Both the position numbers and the translations under genes were made by a program. A stretch of 61,073 bases of DNA, filler included. It is 9 parts of 9 records of this genome, joined end to end, with 100 filler letters (N's around TTAATTAATTAA, not from the genome) between each part and the next. Parts side by side here need not be neighbours in the genome. Positions count along the whole stretch, not along the records: positions 48,062 to 54,578 come from SRR31156797_61922; 8 more parts are not named here. One strand, given 5' to 3'. Shown in pieces: positions 42,284 through 54,678 of this stretch; within the stretch, counting starts at the first letter, position 1; each line of letters starts with the position of its first letter. A model generated the notes under the pieces. It ran no database searches. It had not been told where the DNA came from and saw only the letters and a program-made list of their open reading frames with translations.

Positions 42284-43270
42284 TACGATATTCTTCATCG
42301 CATCATTCGCGACGTCGAAATGGCCGTGCGCAAACGGGTCGCCAATTACGTCGCCGAACGGGCGGATGTCAGCCTCGAGCTGGCCAATCTGTTGGCCAAT
42401 GACGAAATCGAGGTGGCCTATCCCGTCCTTCTCAAGAGCGAGGTCTTGAAAGACGCGTCTCTGATCGAAGTCATCCGCAACCGAACCCTGGAACACCAGT
42501 TGGCGATCGCCATTCGCCACGATGTCAGCGAAGCGGTCTCGGATGCCCTGGTTGAATACGGCGACGAGAGCGTCATCAAGGCCCTTCTTAACAACGACAA
42601 CGCCCGACTATCGAAGGCGACGATGGAATCGCTGGTCGAGCAGTCGCGGCGGATCGATACGTTTCGGGAACCGGTTTTGCGCCGGGCGGAATTGGAACCG
42701 GTACTGGCAAAACGGATGTTCCTTTGGGTATCCGCGGCGCTCAGGCAGATAATCGTCGAACAGTTCAAACTCGATCCGGAAACCGTTGACGACCTTCTGG
42801 AAAAAGCCGTGTTCGAAGAACTGGAAGAGAATGACGGAGGCAGCCGGCCGACAAAAACGACCGAATTGGCGGCTTCCCTGGTGGAAACCAAGGAAATCAC
42901 GCCGGAGATGCTGATTTCCCTTTTGGAAGAAGGGGAAGTATCCCTTTTTGTTTCGGTTTTCGCCCGCATGACAAAAATATCGGACAAGTTGGTCATGCGG
43001 ATCCTTTTCGAACCCGGCGGCGAAGGCTTGGCCATCGCCTGCAAAGCCTTGGATCTGGAAAAACTCATCTTTTCCTCGATCTTCACACTGTCGCGGAAAG
43101 CCAGACCCAGTCTCCGCCAGACGTTGCGACGGGACCTGCGGCGATCGCTTGGTCTTTACGATCAAATGACCGAAAAATCCGCGAGAAAAGTTTTACGGCT
43201 TTGGCAACGCAACACGGATTACCTGAGCGCGATCAGGGAACTCGAGATATCGTCGACAAAGCATGCCTGA
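42284..43270 (+). CDS. DUF2336-domain protein (5'-truncated)
   Basis: LANDEIEVAYPVLLKSEVLKDASLIE...HQLAIAIR...VSEAVSDALV...LLNNDNARLS. Confidence 0.85.
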   Translation, partial: YDILHRIIRDVEMAVRKRVANYVAERADVSLELANLLANDEIEVAYPVLLKSEVLKDASLIEVIRNRTLEHQLAIAIRHDVSEAVSDALVEYGDESVIKALLNNDNARLSKATMESLVEQSRRIDTFREPVLRRAELEPVLAKRMFLWVSAALRQIIVEQFKLDPETVDDLLEKAVFEELEENDGGSRPTKTTELAASLVETKEITPEMLISLLEEGEVSLFVSVFARMTKISDKLVMRILFEPGGEGLAIACKALDLEKLIFSSIFTLSRKARPSLRQTLRRDLRRSLGLYDQMTEKSARKVLRLWQRNTDYLSAIRELEISSTKHA

Positions 43271-46148
43271 TTGGAAAGTCGGAAAAAAACATCCGGGTGA
43301 AGACGGGGCACCTCCTGCCAAGGGACACGAATTCGGCGGGAACAAGGCCGATCTTGTGCGTCGCCTCGACGATATCACTCGGCTTGTTTCCGACTGGGTA
43401 TGGGAAACCGACGAAGAATTCCGCCTGACTTTTCTGTCGTTCAGGGTGTTCGAGGTCCTTGGTTTTCATTCGCTTGAACTGGTCGGCCGGCGGATGACCG
43501 ATTTGGGGGCCTTTTCATCGGAAGACGGCACCCCGATCGAACTTGACTGGAAGGTGCCTTTTCGCGACGTCGCCCTCGAAATCGAAGACCGCAACGGAAA
43601 CCACAAGCATTTCCGGGTCAGCGGACTGCCCGTCTATTCGCCGGAATCGGGGGCATTTACCGGTGTTCTCGGAACCGCGCGCGATATCACCCTTCACCGT
43701 CGCGCCGAACTGGCGCTTAGGGAATCCGAGTATCTGCTGCGTACGGTCGTATCCAACGTGCCGGTTATTCTGTCCTCGTTGGACCGCGACGGCACATTTG
43801 TGCTGTCCGAAGGGAAAAGCCTTTCCGCCTTGGGTTTGGGCCCCGGCGAGGCCGTCGGCAAATCGGTTTTCGAACTCTACCGCGATGTTCCCGAGGCCGG
43901 CCGCTGTTTCCGCCGCGCCCTTGCCGGCGAGGTGGTTCAAGCGATTGTCGAGTATGGCGATTCGACATTCCAAAGCACCTACTCGCCGATTCGTGACGAC
44001 CAGGACCAAATAACCGGCGTCATCGGTGTTGCCGCAAACATTACCGGGCGGGCGCGGGCTCAGAACGAACTGCGCGAAAGCGAAGAGAGGTTCAGAAACC
44101 TGATCGAAGGCTCCCTGTTGGGAATCGTCATCGACCACAATGGCGAACCGGCCTTCGCCAACCAGGCCTTTGCTCAAATGTTCGGATACGGCAGCGGCGA
44201 ACAGATACTCGGGTTGGAATCACTGGACGCTTTGTACCAGTCGCAGGAAGTCGAGAGGATCCGGAAATACCGGGCGGACCGCATGGCCGGACGGCCGGCT
44301 CCGACCCGCTACGAGTTCGCCGGACGCAAACGCGACGGAACGCCGATTTTGGTGGAAACGCAGGTCCGGGCGGTCACTTGGAAGGGCCGTCCCGCGGTGC
44401 AATCGACAGTCATCGACATTACCGACCGGCAACGGATGCTGGACAATCTTAGACAGCTCTCGCAGGCGGTCGAACAAAGCCCCGCCTCGGTCGTCATCAC
44501 CAACACCAAAGGTGCGATCGAATATGTGAACGAGAAATTCGTCCGCATTACAGGCTATTCGGCCGAAGAGGCGATCGGAAAAAACCCGCGCATTCTTAAA
44601 TCCGGCAAAACGCCGCCGGAAAGATACGAGGAAATGTGGCGGGCGTTGGGTGCGGGGCTCGAGTGGCGCGGCGAATTCCTCAACAAGAAGAAAAACGGCG
44701 ATTTGTTCTGGGAATACGCGTCGATCTCGCCGATCAAGGATCTCGATGGCGAGACGACCCACTATCTGGCCGTCAAGGAAGACATAACCCTTCGCAAGGA
44801 ATATGAAAAAAGGCTGATTCAACAGGCCAATTTCGACGAGATGACGGGCCTGCCGAACCGCGGCCTGGCCGTCGACCGGCTATTCCAGGCAACCGCAAGA
44901 TGCGCCCGGGAAAATGCGAAGGTCGGCCTTATGTTCATCGATCTGGACCGTTTCAAGGCCGTCAACGATACATTGGGGCATGCCTCCGGCGATATCGTGC
45001 TGAAGGAGGCGGGCGAGCGAATCAGGGCATGCCTGCGGGCCGGCGACACGGTCGCCCGTCTCGGCGGCGACGAATTCACGGTCATCCTGCCGGGTCTGGC
45101 GATGGGCATCGACGCCGAACCGGTCGCCCAAAAGATCCTCGAGACGTTCCGCCCGGCATTTTTGATCGAGGGACGCGAGGTCTTCCTGTCCGCCAGTGTC
45201 GGCATCACAATTTGGCCCGACGACGGGGCCGATCGGGACCAGTTGCTTGGCAACGCCGATTCGGCCATGTATCAGGCGAAGGAATTGGGCCGCAACAATT
45301 TCCGGTTTTTTACGCCGGAACTGAACGAGAAGGCCCTTGGCCGGGCGCGCATGGAAAACCAAATCCGGCATGCCCTGGAACGCGGCGAATTCGAGCTGAA
45401 CTACCAGCCGATGGTGGATCTCCGCAGCGGCCGGATGATCCGTGTCGAAGCCTTGATTCGCTGGAACAATCCGGAATTGGGCAGAGTCGGTCCCGATCAG
45501 TTTATCCCGCTGGCCGAAGATATCGGCCTGATCGGAAGCATCGGCGAATGGGTGGTGAAGCGGGCTTGCCGGCAGGCCGAAGACTGGCGCATCAAAGGGA
45601 TCGTGCCGGAACGCATCTCGATCAACGTCTCAAGCCGGCAGTTCCGGGGACCGGGGTTGATCGAAATGGTTCTCGGCGCATTGGAACAAACGCTGATTCA
45701 GCCCGACAATCTTGAACTTGAGATCACCGAAAACCTGTTGATGGCGGATATCCCGGAGATCCGGGAATTGCTCGATCGGTTGCGGCAATTGGGAATAAGC
45801 CTGTCGATCGATGATTTCGGCACCGGTTATTCGTCATTGAGCTACCTTCGCCGTTTCCCGGTAAACGTTCTGAAGATCGACAAGTCATTCGTTCAGGACG
45901 TGACGACCGATTCGGAAAGTGCCTCCCTGGTCGAAGCCATCGTCAACATGGCTCGAAGCCTGGGTCTTGAGGTTGTCGCCGAAGGCGTGGAAACCGATGG
46001 CCAGATGGAATTCCTGCGGGCCTGCGGTTGCGACGTCGCTCAGGGCTATTATTTCAGCAAACCGATCCCGGGCGATCGGTTCGAATCCCTCGTAAAAAGT
46101 TGGGATCCTGCCGCCTATATCGGAAAAGCGGAACCGACGGCCGAATAG
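43263..46148 (+). CDS. 4xPAS-GGDEF-EAL c-di-GMP cyclase/phosphodiesterase
   Basis: Four PAS/PAC units; RAGD I-site five residues before GGDEF; EAL, DDFGTGYSSL and EGVE motifs. Confidence 0.94.
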   Translation: MPDWKVGKKHPGEDGAPPAKGHEFGGNKADLVRRLDDITRLVSDWVWETDEEFRLTFLSFRVFEVLGFHSLELVGRRMTDLGAFSSEDGTPIELDWKVPFRDVALEIEDRNGNHKHFRVSGLPVYSPESGAFTGVLGTARDITLHRRAELALRESEYLLRTVVSNVPVILSSLDRDGTFVLSEGKSLSALGLGPGEAVGKSVFELYRDVPEAGRCFRRALAGEVVQAIVEYGDSTFQSTYSPIRDDQDQITGVIGVAANITGRARAQNELRESEERFRNLIEGSLLGIVIDHNGEPAFANQAFAQMFGYGSGEQILGLESLDALYQSQEVERIRKYRADRMAGRPAPTRYEFAGRKRDGTPILVETQVRAVTWKGRPAVQSTVIDITDRQRMLDNLRQLSQAVEQSPASVVITNTKGAIEYVNEKFVRITGYSAEEAIGKNPRILKSGKTPPERYEEMWRALGAGLEWRGEFLNKKKNGDLFWEYASISPIKDLDGETTHYLAVKEDITLRKEYEKRLIQQANFDEMTGLPNRGLAVDRLFQATARCARENAKVGLMFIDLDRFKAVNDTLGHASGDIVLKEAGERIRACLRAGDTVARLGGDEFTVILPGLAMGIDAEPVAQKILETFRPAFLIEGREVFLSASVGITIWPDDGADRDQLLGNADSAMYQAKELGRNNFRFFTPELNEKALGRARMENQIRHALERGEFELNYQPMVDLRSGRMIRVEALIRWNNPELGRVGPDQFIPLAEDIGLIGSIGEWVVKRACRQAEDWRIKGIVPERISINVSSRQFRGPGLIEMVLGALEQTLIQPDNLELEITENLLMADIPEIRELLDRLRQLGISLSIDDFGTGYSSLSYLRRFPVNVLKIDKSFVQDVTTDSESASLVEAIVNMARSLGLEVVAEGVETDGQMEFLRACGCDVAQGYYFSKPIPGDRFESLVKSWDPAAYIGKAEPTAE

Positions 46149-53226: not shown

Positions 53227-53874
53227 AATCCTCCCTCTCTCTCCAAAATTATGCGGCAGGCGCCGCGATTTCCCTGTTTCAGCCCTTCTGAATCAGTCTT
53301 TTGCCGCGTGTGGGCAGCTAACCCGGCCAAGCGGCTTGTAACTCATAATAATAGGCGATTATTCGCCAATTTATTTGAAAATCTTACATTTTTACTGATT
53401 TCGAGCCATAGTAATCCATCGTTTGTCGCCTCGTCAAGCAAAAACAAGGATAAATGGGGTCATTATCCATAACGTTCATGCCGGATTGTGCACCCGGAAA
53501 AAACAGCAGTTGGAAGTCACCGGTTTGTTCGAGGTTTAACAGCTTTTTTCTAGTCCTTCCCTGGCTGGTTAATTGGAAGCGACTTCAGAGCCAATAGTGT
53601 ATGCTTTAATCTTATGCATTGCAAAGCAAGGAAAGCGTTTTCGCCGGCTCCCTCAACATTCATCTATTTTGTGAAGTCAAACGAAAATTTGATAATTATA
53701 AAAGGATCGCCCTTGTTATACATTTGGAACAAGATGTAAAACTCTGGTATAAATAAAAATATAATAAAAATTTAATGTGATGAAGCGACTCCAGTTTGGA
53801 TTGAGACTAATCTGAGAACCGGCGCTTATTGATGATATGTCTTTTAAATGACTTATAAAACAGGAGTAATGCTG

Positions 53875-54450
53875 ATGAGAAAATTATTAGCGGCCATAAT
53901 CCTGGTGATCGGCTTAGCCCAGGTTTCAGTCGTATTCGGACAGGGAGTAGTGGTTAACGGTCGGCCGGTCAGCCTGCAAGAAATTAAAAAGCTGCAGCAA
54001 AGCCTGGGTATTAAAGGAAATGTCACAATTCCTTCCGGACGATACTGGTACGATCCTGTTTCAGGTATCTGGGGTATTGAAGGCGGCCCCACCGAGGGGC
54101 AGATTTATCCGGGGCTTAAATTGGGCGGTCCGCTCCGGAGCAACGCCTCCAATGGAAACACCGGTGTATTTATTAACGGTCGCCAGATTCATTACCTGGA
54201 ATATGCCTGGCTCAAAAAAATCTTTGGCGTTGTTTACCAGGGGCGTTACTGGATGAATGCAAGGGGCGTCGGCGGTTATGAGGGCGGCCCGGCATTGTTC
54301 GATCTATCGTCGGCCATGGCCTCAAGTCGATCCCAAGACGGGATGTATGGGGGATACACCAGGAGGACGCCGTTTGGCGGTATTGGCGGAGATTCCAACT
54401 GCTTTTACTACATGCATCCCGGCGGTTCCAGCGTTATGACCTGTGATTAA
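53875..54450 (+). CDS. Secreted hypothetical protein with a two-fold internal repeat resembling the plant XLG/EDR4 domain
   Basis: SD AGGAG; signal peptide; GVVVNGR..GRYWYD..GIEGGP and GVFINGR..GRYWMN..GYEGGP. Confidence 0.8.
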   Translation: MRKLLAAIILVIGLAQVSVVFGQGVVVNGRPVSLQEIKKLQQSLGIKGNVTIPSGRYWYDPVSGIWGIEGGPTEGQIYPGLKLGGPLRSNASNGNTGVFINGRQIHYLEYAWLKKIFGVVYQGRYWMNARGVGGYEGGPALFDLSSAMASSRSQDGMYGGYTRRTPFGGIGGDSNCFYYMHPGGSSVMTCD

Positions 54451-54578: not shown

Positions 54579-54678
54579 NNNNNNNNNNNNNNNNNNNNNN
54601 NNNNNNNNNNNNNNNNNNNNNNTTAATTAATTAANNNNNNNNNNNNNNNNNNNNNNNNNNNNNNNNNNNNNNNNNNNN
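54579..54678. other. Artificial contig-joining spacer
   Basis: N-run + TTAATTAATTAA + N-run. Confidence 0.97.

What the first reader, a model, noticed from the sequence alone, without database searches (positions are those of the whole stretch)
53875..54450. Stand-alone secreted bacterial protein resembling the 'plant-specific' XLG/EDR4 domain
Seen: a 191-aa ORF with a Sec-type signal peptide and a two-fold repeat, GVVVNGRPV...GRYWYDPVSGIWGIEGGP...GGPLRSNASNGNTGVFINGRQI...GRYWMNARGVGGYEGGP. It ends in a Gly-rich tail with two Cys. Recalled knowledge, not searched: the region preceding the G-alpha domain in plant extra-large G proteins (XLG1-3), and the C-terminal region of EDR4-like proteins, carry the same ordered motifs (V.VNG.P, G.YWYD..SG.WG..G, GG.....ASNGNT.VFINGREI). 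Inference: this is a bacterial, exported, free-standing version of a domain tied to plant G-protein and immune signalling. It could indicate the domain's origin and offer a tractable way to find its ligand or fold.
Basis: partly seen in the sequence, partly recalled or inferred. Interest (0 to 1): 0.82.

Follow-up and report, generated by a model that had tools for sequence, protein, structure and literature searches.

The report
Bacterial relative of plant XLG domain
A small exported bacterial protein is a free-standing copy of a widespread, unnamed bacterial domain that also forms the uncharacterised stretch in front of the G-alpha part of plant extra-large G proteins, which makes that plant stretch much easier to study.

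Summary
Window 53875-54450 (+) encodes a 191-aa protein with a signal-peptide-like N-terminus, an internal two-fold repeat and a Gly-rich tail with two Cys.

The XLG reading is supported. Direct search gives plant XLG proteins at E 4e-15 to 1e-9 in 5.8 billion sequences. BLASTP gives 43-49% identity over 93-115 residues. A bacteria-only profile reaches E 2e-27. A plant-only profile scores P0001 at 74 bits against at most 6.3 bits for shuffled or reversed controls.

The EDR4 link could not be tested here. An earlier scan note on other DNA reports it.

The family is large: 1452 representatives in at least 8 phyla. It has no Pfam or NCBIfam model. Confident models (pLDDT 91) find no solved fold. 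Six literature searches found no paper linking XLG to bacteria.

In relatives the domain is the outer part of single-pass kinases and cyclases, or follows PDZ or caspase domains. It is most likely a binding or sensor module with an unknown ligand.

The window is a chain of contigs, so the apparent neighbour rseP lies on another contig.

The parts
53227..53874 (.). 648-bp AT-rich spacer between the divergent ABC-transporter binding-protein gene and this gene. It presumably holds the promoter.
   Evidence: GC is 0.33-0.46 here against about 0.50-0.56 in the flanking genes. One sigma-70-like site lies on the + strand at 53669-53696; the region holds 4 such sites against 1.7 expected, which is not decisive. 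No Rfam family matches.
53862..53866 (+). Shine-Dalgarno-like AGGAG, 8 nt before the start codon
   Evidence: Read directly.
53875..54450 (+). Coding sequence of the 191-aa protein P0001, stop codon included
   Evidence: P0002 is 95% identical and also 191 aa.
53875..53940 (+). Residues 1-22: Sec-type signal peptide (MRK, hydrophobic core, VFG before Q23)
   Evidence: By inspection. The AF2 model has a helix at residues 2-14, detached from the fold. 266 of 310 bacterial family members have a hydrophobic 11-mer (Kyte-Doolittle >=2.0) upstream of the domain.
53941..54093 (+). Residues 23-73: repeat unit 1 (beta-hairpin VxVNG, helix, beta-hairpin GRYWYD..SGxWG, EGGP)
   Evidence: It aligns to XLG P0155 residues 253-300.
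54094..54159 (+). Residues 74-95: conserved linker (GQIxPGLxLGGPLxxxAS.G)
   Evidence: G75, G84, G85, L87 and A91 are nearly invariant and S92 is invariant. A91 and S92 are 100% conserved in plants.
54160..54297 (+). Residues 96-141: repeat unit 2 (TGVFINGR, helix, GRYW..G.GG.EGGP)
   Evidence: It aligns to XLG P0154 residues 438-478.
54298..54447 (+). Residues 142-191: helix, then a Gly-rich four-strand beta tail with C176 and C190. This part is specific to bacteria and absent from XLG.
   Evidence: The model has H144-151 and strands 160-165, 168-173, 176-180 and 186-190, at pLDDT 64-92. Both Cys are invariant in A2. Among members with an upstream hydrophobic segment and a tail of at least 35 residues, 175 of 237 have >=2 Cys in the tail.
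54579..54678 (.). Contig joint: N run, TTAATTAATTAA, N run. The gene's contig is 48062-54578. Everything to the right (rseP, dxr and onward) is another contig.

Best explanation
SHOWN. The ORF is a real gene for a small protein. Its mature part (about 169 aa) is one free-standing copy of a large, unnamed bacterial domain family.

The domain has three parts:
- a duplicated unit (beta-hairpin, helix, beta-hairpin), present twice;
- a conserved linker between the two units;
- in most bacterial members, a short beta tail with two Cys.

The two-repeat core is homologous to the conserved segment between the Cys-rich zinc-finger region and the G-alpha domain of plant extra-large G proteins. The invariant residues are shared between the two kingdoms: N, WYD, S, NGR, W, E.

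INFERRED, location. The protein is exported by Sec, and the tail Cys pair forms a disulfide outside the cytoplasm.

INFERRED, mechanism. The domain is a binding or sensing module rather than an enzyme. In relatives it is the extracytoplasmic end of single-pass Ser/Thr kinases and class III cyclases. There, occupancy by a ligand or partner would be passed through the membrane. It is also attached to periplasmic PDZ and caspase-like domains, where it would target or regulate them. The stand-alone form in this window would then be a soluble periplasmic binder of the same, still unknown, ligand or partner. The surface built from the invariant Trp/Tyr/Asp/Asn/Arg/Ser/Glu residues is the likely binding site.

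INFERRED, evolution. In plants the same core was recruited to the cytosol in front of a G-alpha output domain, and its second repeat then diverged. The bacterial form is the less derived one.
For: Gene is real:
- A Shine-Dalgarno site lies 8 nt before the ATG.
- 684 homologues of similar length match.
- 1452 representatives match, 939 of them at E<=1e-10.

Homology to XLG:
- Searches give E-values down to 2e-27 in 5.8e9 sequences.
- The reciprocal plant-only profile gives P0001 74.1 bits, E 2.9e-15. The best of 909 shuffles scored 4.5 bits and the best of 303 reversals 6.3 bits.
- Bacterial invariants are 100% conserved in 107 plant segments.

Duplication.

Location outside the cytoplasm:
- 266 of 310 bacterial members have a hydrophobic segment upstream of the domain.
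- The kinase fusion P0139 and the cyclase fusions P0144, P0152 and P0153 have the catalytic domain first, then one hydrophobic helix, then the domain.
- The caspase and PDZ fusions start with signal peptides.
- The tail Cys pair is present in 175 of 237 members that have an upstream hydrophobic segment and a long tail.
- The subfamily without any hydrophobic segment (P0123, P0124, P0243, P0318, P0304, P0324, P0361, P0267) has no Cys in the tail.

Signalling and binding context:
- 17 PDZ fusions, 3 cyclase, 1 kinase, 1 caspase, 2 SHOCT and 1 DUF4412.
- Further cyclase, kinase and caspase fusions.

Not a known enzyme or fold:
- No family in Pfam, NCBIfam or PADLOC.
- No solved fold matches.

Polarity:
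- Identity between repeats within one protein has a median of 37% in 297 bacterial proteins and 23% in 107 plant proteins.
- Plant repeat 1 is closer to bacterial repeat 2 (17/45 consensus positions) than to plant repeat 2 (11/45).
- Bacterial diversity spans at least 8 phyla. The 24 plant rows form one tight clade.
Against: - No ligand, partner or activity is known for any member in either kingdom. The binding-module reading rests on domain architecture alone.
- No conserved gene neighbourhood gives a functional hint. The commonest neighbour cluster occurs in 7 of 81 loci, and ORF calling there was crude.
- Identity of 40-60% across phyla, with invariant polar residues (D60, S92, R103, E136), would also fit a small enzyme.
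- The signal peptide and the disulfide are read by eye and by simple hydropathy, not by a dedicated predictor or experiment.
- 52 of 237 apparently exported members lack tail Cys, so the disulfide is not universal.
- The fold is a prediction (pLDDT 91, pTM 0.71). Absence of PDB matches does not prove a new fold.
- The tree is unrooted. The symmetry argument could also reflect faster evolution in plants after an ancient common origin.
- The host organism is unresolved, because the gene sits on a 6.5-kb contig.
Confidence: 0.7

Rival explanations
1. The domain is a small extracytoplasmic enzyme, for example one acting on a cell-envelope polymer. The fusions to PDZ, caspase, kinase and cyclase domains would then reflect a catalytic accessory rather than a sensor.
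For: Conservation across phyla is very high for a small exported protein: 40-60% identity. Invariant or near-invariant polar residues D60, S92, N28, N101, R103 and E136 are kept in both kingdoms.
Against: No match to any enzyme family or fold was found. The position as the sole ectodomain of single-pass kinases and cyclases is typical of sensor domains. The invariants lie symmetrically in two repeats (N28/N101, WY/YW, EGG/EGG), which is more typical of a duplicated binding scaffold than of a single active site.
Confidence: 0.12
2. The domain has no ligand. It is a self-associating or scaffolding module that dimerises receptors and periplasmic proteins.
For: Class III cyclases and many Ser/Thr kinases work as dimers, and both occur fused to it. 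One protein carries two full tandem copies (P0235). The domain itself is an internal duplication.
Against: Nothing measured supports self-association. A stand-alone exported copy present in hundreds of species is hard to explain as a pure dimeriser.
Confidence: 0.1
3. The protein is a secreted antagonistic peptide (bacteriocin-like), because it is small, exported, Gly-rich and disulfide-bonded.
For: It has a small size, a signal peptide and a Gly-rich Cys-containing tail. It is a variable, stand-alone gene without a conserved neighbourhood.
Against: No immunity or export partner recurs beside it. The same domain is built into receptors and periplasmic multidomain proteins. It is highly conserved across phyla instead of fast-evolving. 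PADLOC gives no match and PHROGs only one weak one, E 0.24.
Confidence: 0.03
4. The likeness to XLG is not homology. It would be a product of Gly-rich composition or convergence, or of contamination between plant and bacterial assemblies.
For: The segment is short (about 115 residues) and rich in Gly.
Against: Shuffled and reversed controls score at most 4.5 and 6.3 bits, against 28-93 bits for the real sequences. The match is collinear over both repeats and the linker. The invariant residues are the same in both kingdoms. The plant hits sit on contigs of up to about 200 Mb and carry a G-alpha domain in the same protein. The bacterial ones sit on bacterial contigs, including complete MAG chromosomes (CP070815.1, CP070722.1).
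Confidence: 0.02

Closest known systems
Plant extra-large G proteins (XLG1/2/3): the conserved segment between the Cys-rich (4 x CxxC) region and the G-alpha domain
   Same: The two-repeat core and linker are homologous and collinear. Identity is 43-49% over 93-115 residues. Profile positions 2-113 of 116 are matched. N28, W58, Y59, D60, G64, G67, S92, N101, R103, W126 and E136 are each 100% conserved in 107 plant segments.
   Different: XLGs are cytosolic or nuclear proteins of 800-950 aa. They have a zinc-finger-like region before the segment and a G-alpha domain (PF00503) after it. P0001 has neither. It has a signal peptide and a Cys-bridged beta tail that plants lack. Plant repeat 2 has diverged (G123T, R124H, G134E, GGP to GQN).
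EDR4 / DUF3133 (PF11331) plant proteins, some annotated 'extra-large G-like'
   Same: These are leads only. Earlier scan note e1-5131808 reports 43 EDR4-type hits with bacteria-only patterns. [quoted passage not shown]
   Different: Not tested here. P0001 has no PF11331 match, and none of my searches returned an EDR4-type protein.
Small XLGs (SXLG) of Lotus japonicus (bioRxiv 10.1101/2025.06.18.660248)
   Same: These are plant proteins made of the XLG N-terminal part without G-alpha, that is, a free-standing form of the plant region (abstract and section 24).
   Different: They are defined by the NLS and the Cys-rich region. Whether they include the segment studied here is not stated in the text I read. 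They are plant cytosolic or nuclear proteins, not exported.
Extracytoplasmic sensor domains of bacterial single-pass Ser/Thr kinases and class III cyclases (e.g. PASTA, CHASE, Cache; named from general knowledge)
   Same: It works like these: it holds the same place in the architecture, as a C-terminal ectodomain after one membrane helix, and it also occurs as a stand-alone exported protein.
   Different: No sequence match to any Pfam sensor family and no fold match. The ligand is unknown.

Membership tests
Unnamed bacterial family (this protein's own family) | Two-repeat core with invariant N28, W58-Y59-D60, G64, G67, S92, N101, R103, G134 | tested here: met
   P0001 carries all of them. The core profile matches it, and it scores 74.1 bits even with the plant-only profile.
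Unnamed bacterial family (this protein's own family) | N-terminal signal peptide or membrane helix, and a C-terminal beta tail with two Cys | tested here: met
   The hydrophobic N-terminus and C176/C190 were seen by inspection. The same holds in 266 of 310 members (hydrophobic segment) and 175 of 237 members (Cys pair).
Plant XLG proteins | C-terminal G-alpha domain (PF00503) | tested here: not met
   No Pfam family matches P0001 at E<=10. The protein ends 50 residues after the core.
Plant XLG proteins | Cys-rich region with four CxxC motifs before the segment | tested here: not met
   P0001 has only two Cys, both in the tail, and no CxxC.
Plant XLG proteins | Conserved segment VxVNG...GRYWYD..SG.WG...ASNGNT.V.INGRE between the zinc-finger region and G-alpha | tested here: met
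EDR4 / DUF3133 (PF11331, zinc_ribbon_12) | PF11331 zinc-ribbon domain | tested here: not met
   No Pfam match at E<=10.
EDR4 / DUF3133 (PF11331, zinc_ribbon_12) | C-terminal segment said to share the XLG motifs | not tested
   No EDR4-type sequence was obtained: none among 103 hits or among the 120 listed of 121 hits. Only leads exist.
Known extracytoplasmic sensor or binding domains (PASTA, Cache, CHASE, LysM, PDZ etc.) | Match to the family's profile or fold | tested here: inconclusive
C-terminal sorting signals (PEP-CTERM, MYXO-CTERM and the like) | Terminal hydrophobic helix followed by basic residues | tested here: not met
   The last 50 residues have no hydrophobic stretch and are modelled as four beta strands. 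No Pfam or NCBIfam sorting-signal model hits P0001.

The most novel reading that the evidence does not exclude
An old bacterial extracytoplasmic sensor domain with a fold not yet seen in any solved structure was taken up once by an ancestor of green plants. It still uses the same invariant surface (N, WYD, S, NGR, W, E) to bind the same class of ligand or partner. If so, the ligand and structure of the 'uncharacterised' XLG N-terminal region could be found with easily made bacterial proteins such as this one.
Probability: 0.4. Interest if true: 0.88.

Novelty: categorically new. Interest (0 to 1): 0.76.

Why it matters
XLG proteins are central to plant immune and developmental signalling. The papers I read still call their N-terminal half 'uncharacterized', 'of unknown function' and plant-specific:
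- passages of PMC13185490;
- passages of bioRxiv 10.1101/2021.10.08.463358;
- section 24 of bioRxiv 10.1101/2025.06.18.660248. This paper reports that BLAST with small XLGs found only plants and some algae. It also reports that AlphaFold gave very low confidence outside a portion of the Cys-rich domain.

Here about 115 residues of that half turn out to be a defined, duplicated domain. It has hundreds of bacterial relatives and a confident predicted structure. This gives four things:
1. domain boundaries and a list of invariant residues to mutate in XLG2 and XLG3;
2. small, soluble bacterial proteins for structure determination and ligand screens;
3. a likely bacterial origin for part of a 'plant-specific' G protein;
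4. a new, widespread sensor-type ectodomain of bacterial kinases and cyclases.

The function is still unknown in both kingdoms.

Tried and rejected
EDR4 link:
- Neither the single-protein search for longer proteins (103 hits) nor the bacterial-profile search (120 of 121 hits listed) returned a protein with PF11331 or an EDR4 name.
- With all three searches used, the link stays untested.

ESM Atlas: two look-ups gave 'no usable hit'.

Fold searches:
- Foldseek against the PDB found 0 matches at E<=1e-3 for the full and the mature model.
- A PDB sequence-profile search found only one chain, at E=1.

Homodimer prediction gave no verdict, so it counts neither for nor against.

Public sequencing runs: no RNA holder was listed.

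Own genome: none is held.

Gene neighbourhood:
- All-against-all clustering of crude ORFs within 5 kb in 80 loci plus the window found no recurrent neighbour. The best cluster occurs in 7 of 81 loci.
- In GC-rich loci the ORF caller often picked antisense ORFs: 19 loci had one over the gene itself.

Adjacency to rseP was first taken as context and then rejected. A contig joint lies between the two genes.

Host assignment:
- dxr is 64% identical to an alphaproteobacterial MAG, but it lies on the other contig.
- The same-contig binding protein reaches only 31% identity to any of the five genomes tried.
- The host is therefore unresolved.

Other negative results:
- Rfam on the whole window: 0 matches.
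- The promoter and terminator scan was not decisive.
It was repeated with 18 closer sequences.
- Pfam on 19 longer bacterial relatives that had no precomputed Pfam domain: 15 gave nothing. The rest gave one DUF5640, two cyclase matches (P0150 just under the cut-off) and one PEP-CTERM match below the cut-off.
- P0381, with an M32 peptidase hit truncated at both ends of the model, may be a chimeric gene call.

Full report
WHAT IS THERE

On the + strand an ORF runs from 53848 to 54450. The ATG at 53875 is preceded at 8 nt by AGGAG (53862-53866). The closest database relative is 95% identical and also 191 aa (P0002).

The protein has five parts:
- Residues 1-22: a positive N-terminus, a hydrophobic run and small residues before Q23. 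I read this as a Sec signal peptide by inspection; no predictor was available.
- Residues 23-73: repeat unit 1.
- Residues 74-95: a conserved linker.
- Residues 96-141: repeat unit 2.
- Residues 142-191: a Gly-rich tail with C176 and C190.

The two units align at 18 of 50 identical residues, E 1e-8. At family level hhalign gives probability 99.1%, E 1.7e-18, over 45 columns.

THE WINDOW IS A CHAIN OF CONTIGS

Eight linkers (an N run, TTAATTAATTAA, an N run) divide the window (searches show two of them). The gene's contig is 48062-54578.

On this contig the only neighbours are the genes of an Opp/Dpp-type ABC transporter on the other strand: an ATPase, two permeases and a family-5 binding protein. 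A 648-bp AT-rich spacer separates them from the gene.

The rseP, dxr, cdsA, uppS, frr and pyrH genes to the right belong to another contig. Their adjacency means nothing. The host is unresolved.

THE FAMILY

P0001 matches no model in Pfam, NCBIfam or PADLOC, and PHROGs gives only E 0.24. Yet the family is large:
- 684 proteins of 105-335 aa match at E<=1e-3. All 120 listed are unnamed or 'hypothetical' and carry no precomputed Pfam domain.
- An exhaustive HMMER scan of 1.84 billion cluster representatives finds 1452 at E<=1e-3 and 939 at E<=1e-10.
- In one genome per species, 259 of 292 pattern matches encode relatives.
- The best 80 loci come from Pseudomonadota (47), Gemmatimonadota (20), Thermodesulfobacteriota (4), Nitrospirota (3), and one each from Bdellovibrionota, Methylomirabilota, Planctomycetota and Acidobacteriota. 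Two are unplaced. Nearly all are metagenome-assembled genomes.

Identity to P0001 stays at 37-63% across 88 homologues. Ten columns are invariant: N28, W58, Y59, D60, G64, G67, S92, N101, R103 and G134. No gene recurs next to it; the best neighbour cluster is in 7 of 81 loci, and ORF calling there was crude.

HOMOLOGY TO PLANT XLG

- A search among longer proteins with P0001 alone gave 103 hits. Of these, 32 are bacterial multidomain proteins and 71 are plant-type proteins. Of the plant-type proteins, 67 carry the G-alpha domain PF00503, many named 'extra-large guanine nucleotide-binding protein', at E 3.8e-15 to 7.7e-8.
- BLASTP gives 46/93 identical (E 5e-23) to residues 253-342 of an 824-aa XLG-type protein. 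It gives 49/115 (E 3e-24) to residues 367-478 of a 942-aa one.
- In both proteins Pfam sees only G-alpha further downstream, and nothing on the matched segment.
- A profile built from 89 bacterial sequences only finds XLG1- and XLG3-type proteins at E 2.3e-27 to 1.7e-19. It covers profile positions 2-113 of 116, so both repeats and the linker are matched.
- The reverse test used a profile of 107 plant segments only. It scores 302 of 303 bacterial proteins at E<=1e-3 for a database of 5.77e9. P0001 scores 74.1 bits. The best of 909 shuffled copies scores 4.5 bits and the best of 303 reversed copies 6.3 bits. The bacterial targets had been picked by the bacterial profile, so the controls, not the selection, carry this test.
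- All bacterial invariants except G134 are 100% conserved in the plant segments, as are W126 and E136.

This is homology, not composition or contamination.

EDR4

Two leads exist:
- One paper passage says the DUF3133 protein AT3G61670 is described as 'extra-large G-like' (PMC10421300). Another places EDR4 among DUF3133 proteins (PMC6428781).

The scan has thus met this family before, on other DNA.

STRUCTURE

AlphaFold2 with the family alignment gives mean pLDDT 90.9, pTM 0.71 for the full protein. For the mature protein it gives 90.7 and 0.71.

Each repeat is modelled as beta-hairpin, helix, beta-hairpin. The tail is a helix plus four short strands.

None of the fold searches found a relative:
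- Foldseek against 350,542 PDB chains: 0 matches at E<=1e-3.
- A sequence profile against PDB chains: nothing significant.

This does not prove a new fold, but no solved relative is visible.

WHERE AND HOW IT LIKELY WORKS

I looked at 310 bacterial proteins with a near-complete core.
- 266 have a hydrophobic 11-mer upstream of the domain.
- Of the 237 of these with a tail of at least 35 residues, 175 have two or more Cys in the tail.
- A subfamily with a soluble N-terminal domain, in some cases followed by SHOCT, has no hydrophobic segment and no Cys in the tail.
- This pattern fits a disulfide formed outside the cytoplasm.

In multidomain relatives the domain always comes last. One search gives the Pfam domains. 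The membrane helices and signal peptides were read from the sequences.

| Architecture | Examples |
|---|---|
| Ser/Thr kinase, one membrane helix, linker, domain | P0139, P0375 |
| Class III cyclase, one membrane helix, linker, domain | P0144, P0152, P0153 and others |
| Signal peptide, caspase-like peptidase, domain | P0122, P0338, P0372, P0377 |
| Signal peptide, PDZ, domain | 17 proteins |
| DUF4412, domain | P0125 |

This is the architecture of a sensor or targeting module. I therefore read the stand-alone protein as a soluble periplasmic binder. The conserved aromatic and polar surface would be the binding site. The ligand is unknown.

The steps 'exported', 'disulfide' and 'binding module' are inferred. 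The main rivals are an enzyme or a pure dimeriser. A homodimer prediction gave no verdict.

DIRECTION OF EVOLUTION

In a tree of 86 core segments the 24 plant rows sit on one side of a long branch (length 1.29, SH-aLRT 100). Diversity inside the plant group is low, and the 62 bacterial rows are deeply divergent. The tree has no root.

An independent polarity argument comes from the repeats:
- The two repeats of one protein are 37% identical (median) in 297 bacterial proteins and 23% in 107 plant proteins.
- The plant repeat 1 consensus is closer to bacterial repeat 2 (17/45) than to plant repeat 2 (11/45).
- The bacterial form therefore keeps more of the ancestral symmetry, and the plant form is derived.

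This favours a bacterial-type ancestor. Faster change in plants after a very old common origin is not excluded. The rows are related, so the rank test overstates significance.

LITERATURE

Searches found no paper that links the XLG N-terminal region to bacterial proteins or to EDR4.
- Only one paper holds both 'EDR4' and 'XLG...' (an RLK review, listing only).
- Passages of the 2026 review PMC13185490 call XLGs plant-specific, with an extended N-terminal region.
[quoted passage not shown] - Section 24 of bioRxiv 10.1101/2025.06.18.660248 reports BLAST hits only in plants and some algae.

By arithmetic on the alignment, E293 and nes387 of XLG2 would fall at the start of the domain and in its second helix. 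This guess is not verified: I had neither the AtXLG2 sequence nor the figure.

Subscription papers, figures and supplements were not searchable.

VERDICT

The XLG interpretation is supported. EDR4 is untested here. The function is unknown in both kingdoms but is best read as a binding or sensor module.

I found no description of the family in Pfam or NCBIfam, among solved structures, or in the papers I could search.

Noticed in passing
window 6043, 11848, 20275, 26357, 36062, 42227, 48006, 54623: The window is nine short contigs joined by linkers (N run, TTAATTAATTAA, N run). Gene adjacency across these points is artificial, for example this gene and rseP. GC differs between pieces, from 0.50 to 0.64.
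   Followed up: yes
window 53227-53874: A 648-bp AT-rich spacer (GC down to 0.33) lies upstream of the gene, with no Rfam match and no clear promoter. It is unusually long for a bacterial intergenic region.
   Followed up: partly
P0123, P0124, P0243, P0318, P0304, P0324, P0361, P0267: A subfamily has a soluble N-terminal domain of unknown family (with SHOCT in P0123 and P0124) and no hydrophobic segment. It has no Cys in the tail, which suggests a cytoplasmic branch of the bacterial family.
   Followed up: partly
P0235 (315 aa): This protein has two complete tandem copies of the core, at residues 24-138 and 151-263.
   Followed up: no
P0166 (418 aa), P0176 (453 aa): These plant-type proteins from transcript-like contigs have the XLG N-terminus, the Cys-rich region and this domain. 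They end just after the domain in a hydrophobic stretch instead of G-alpha. They may be short XLG isoforms or truncated assemblies.
   Followed up: no
P0381 (418 aa): A truncated M32 carboxypeptidase match (profile positions 101-368 of 489) is followed directly by the domain. Its domain is nearly the same as that of a cyclase fusion, so this is probably a chimeric gene call or assembly.
   Followed up: partly
L001 and L019; L011 and L036; L040 and L054: Three metagenome-assembled genomes each carry two loci with a family member, so paralogues occur within one genome bin.
   Followed up: no
XLG-type protein P0155 residues 253 and 336-342: By position arithmetic only, XLG2 E293K and the export signal mutated in nes387 (bioRxiv 10.1101/2021.10.08.463358) would fall at the first residue of the domain and in the helix of repeat 2 (LELRVLK). 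If so, published loss-of-function alleles already hit this domain.
   Followed up: partly
window 43263-46148 (+), on another contig: A 961-aa PAS-PAS-GGDEF-EAL protein, that is, cyclic-di-GMP turnover. It is ordinary.
   Followed up: no
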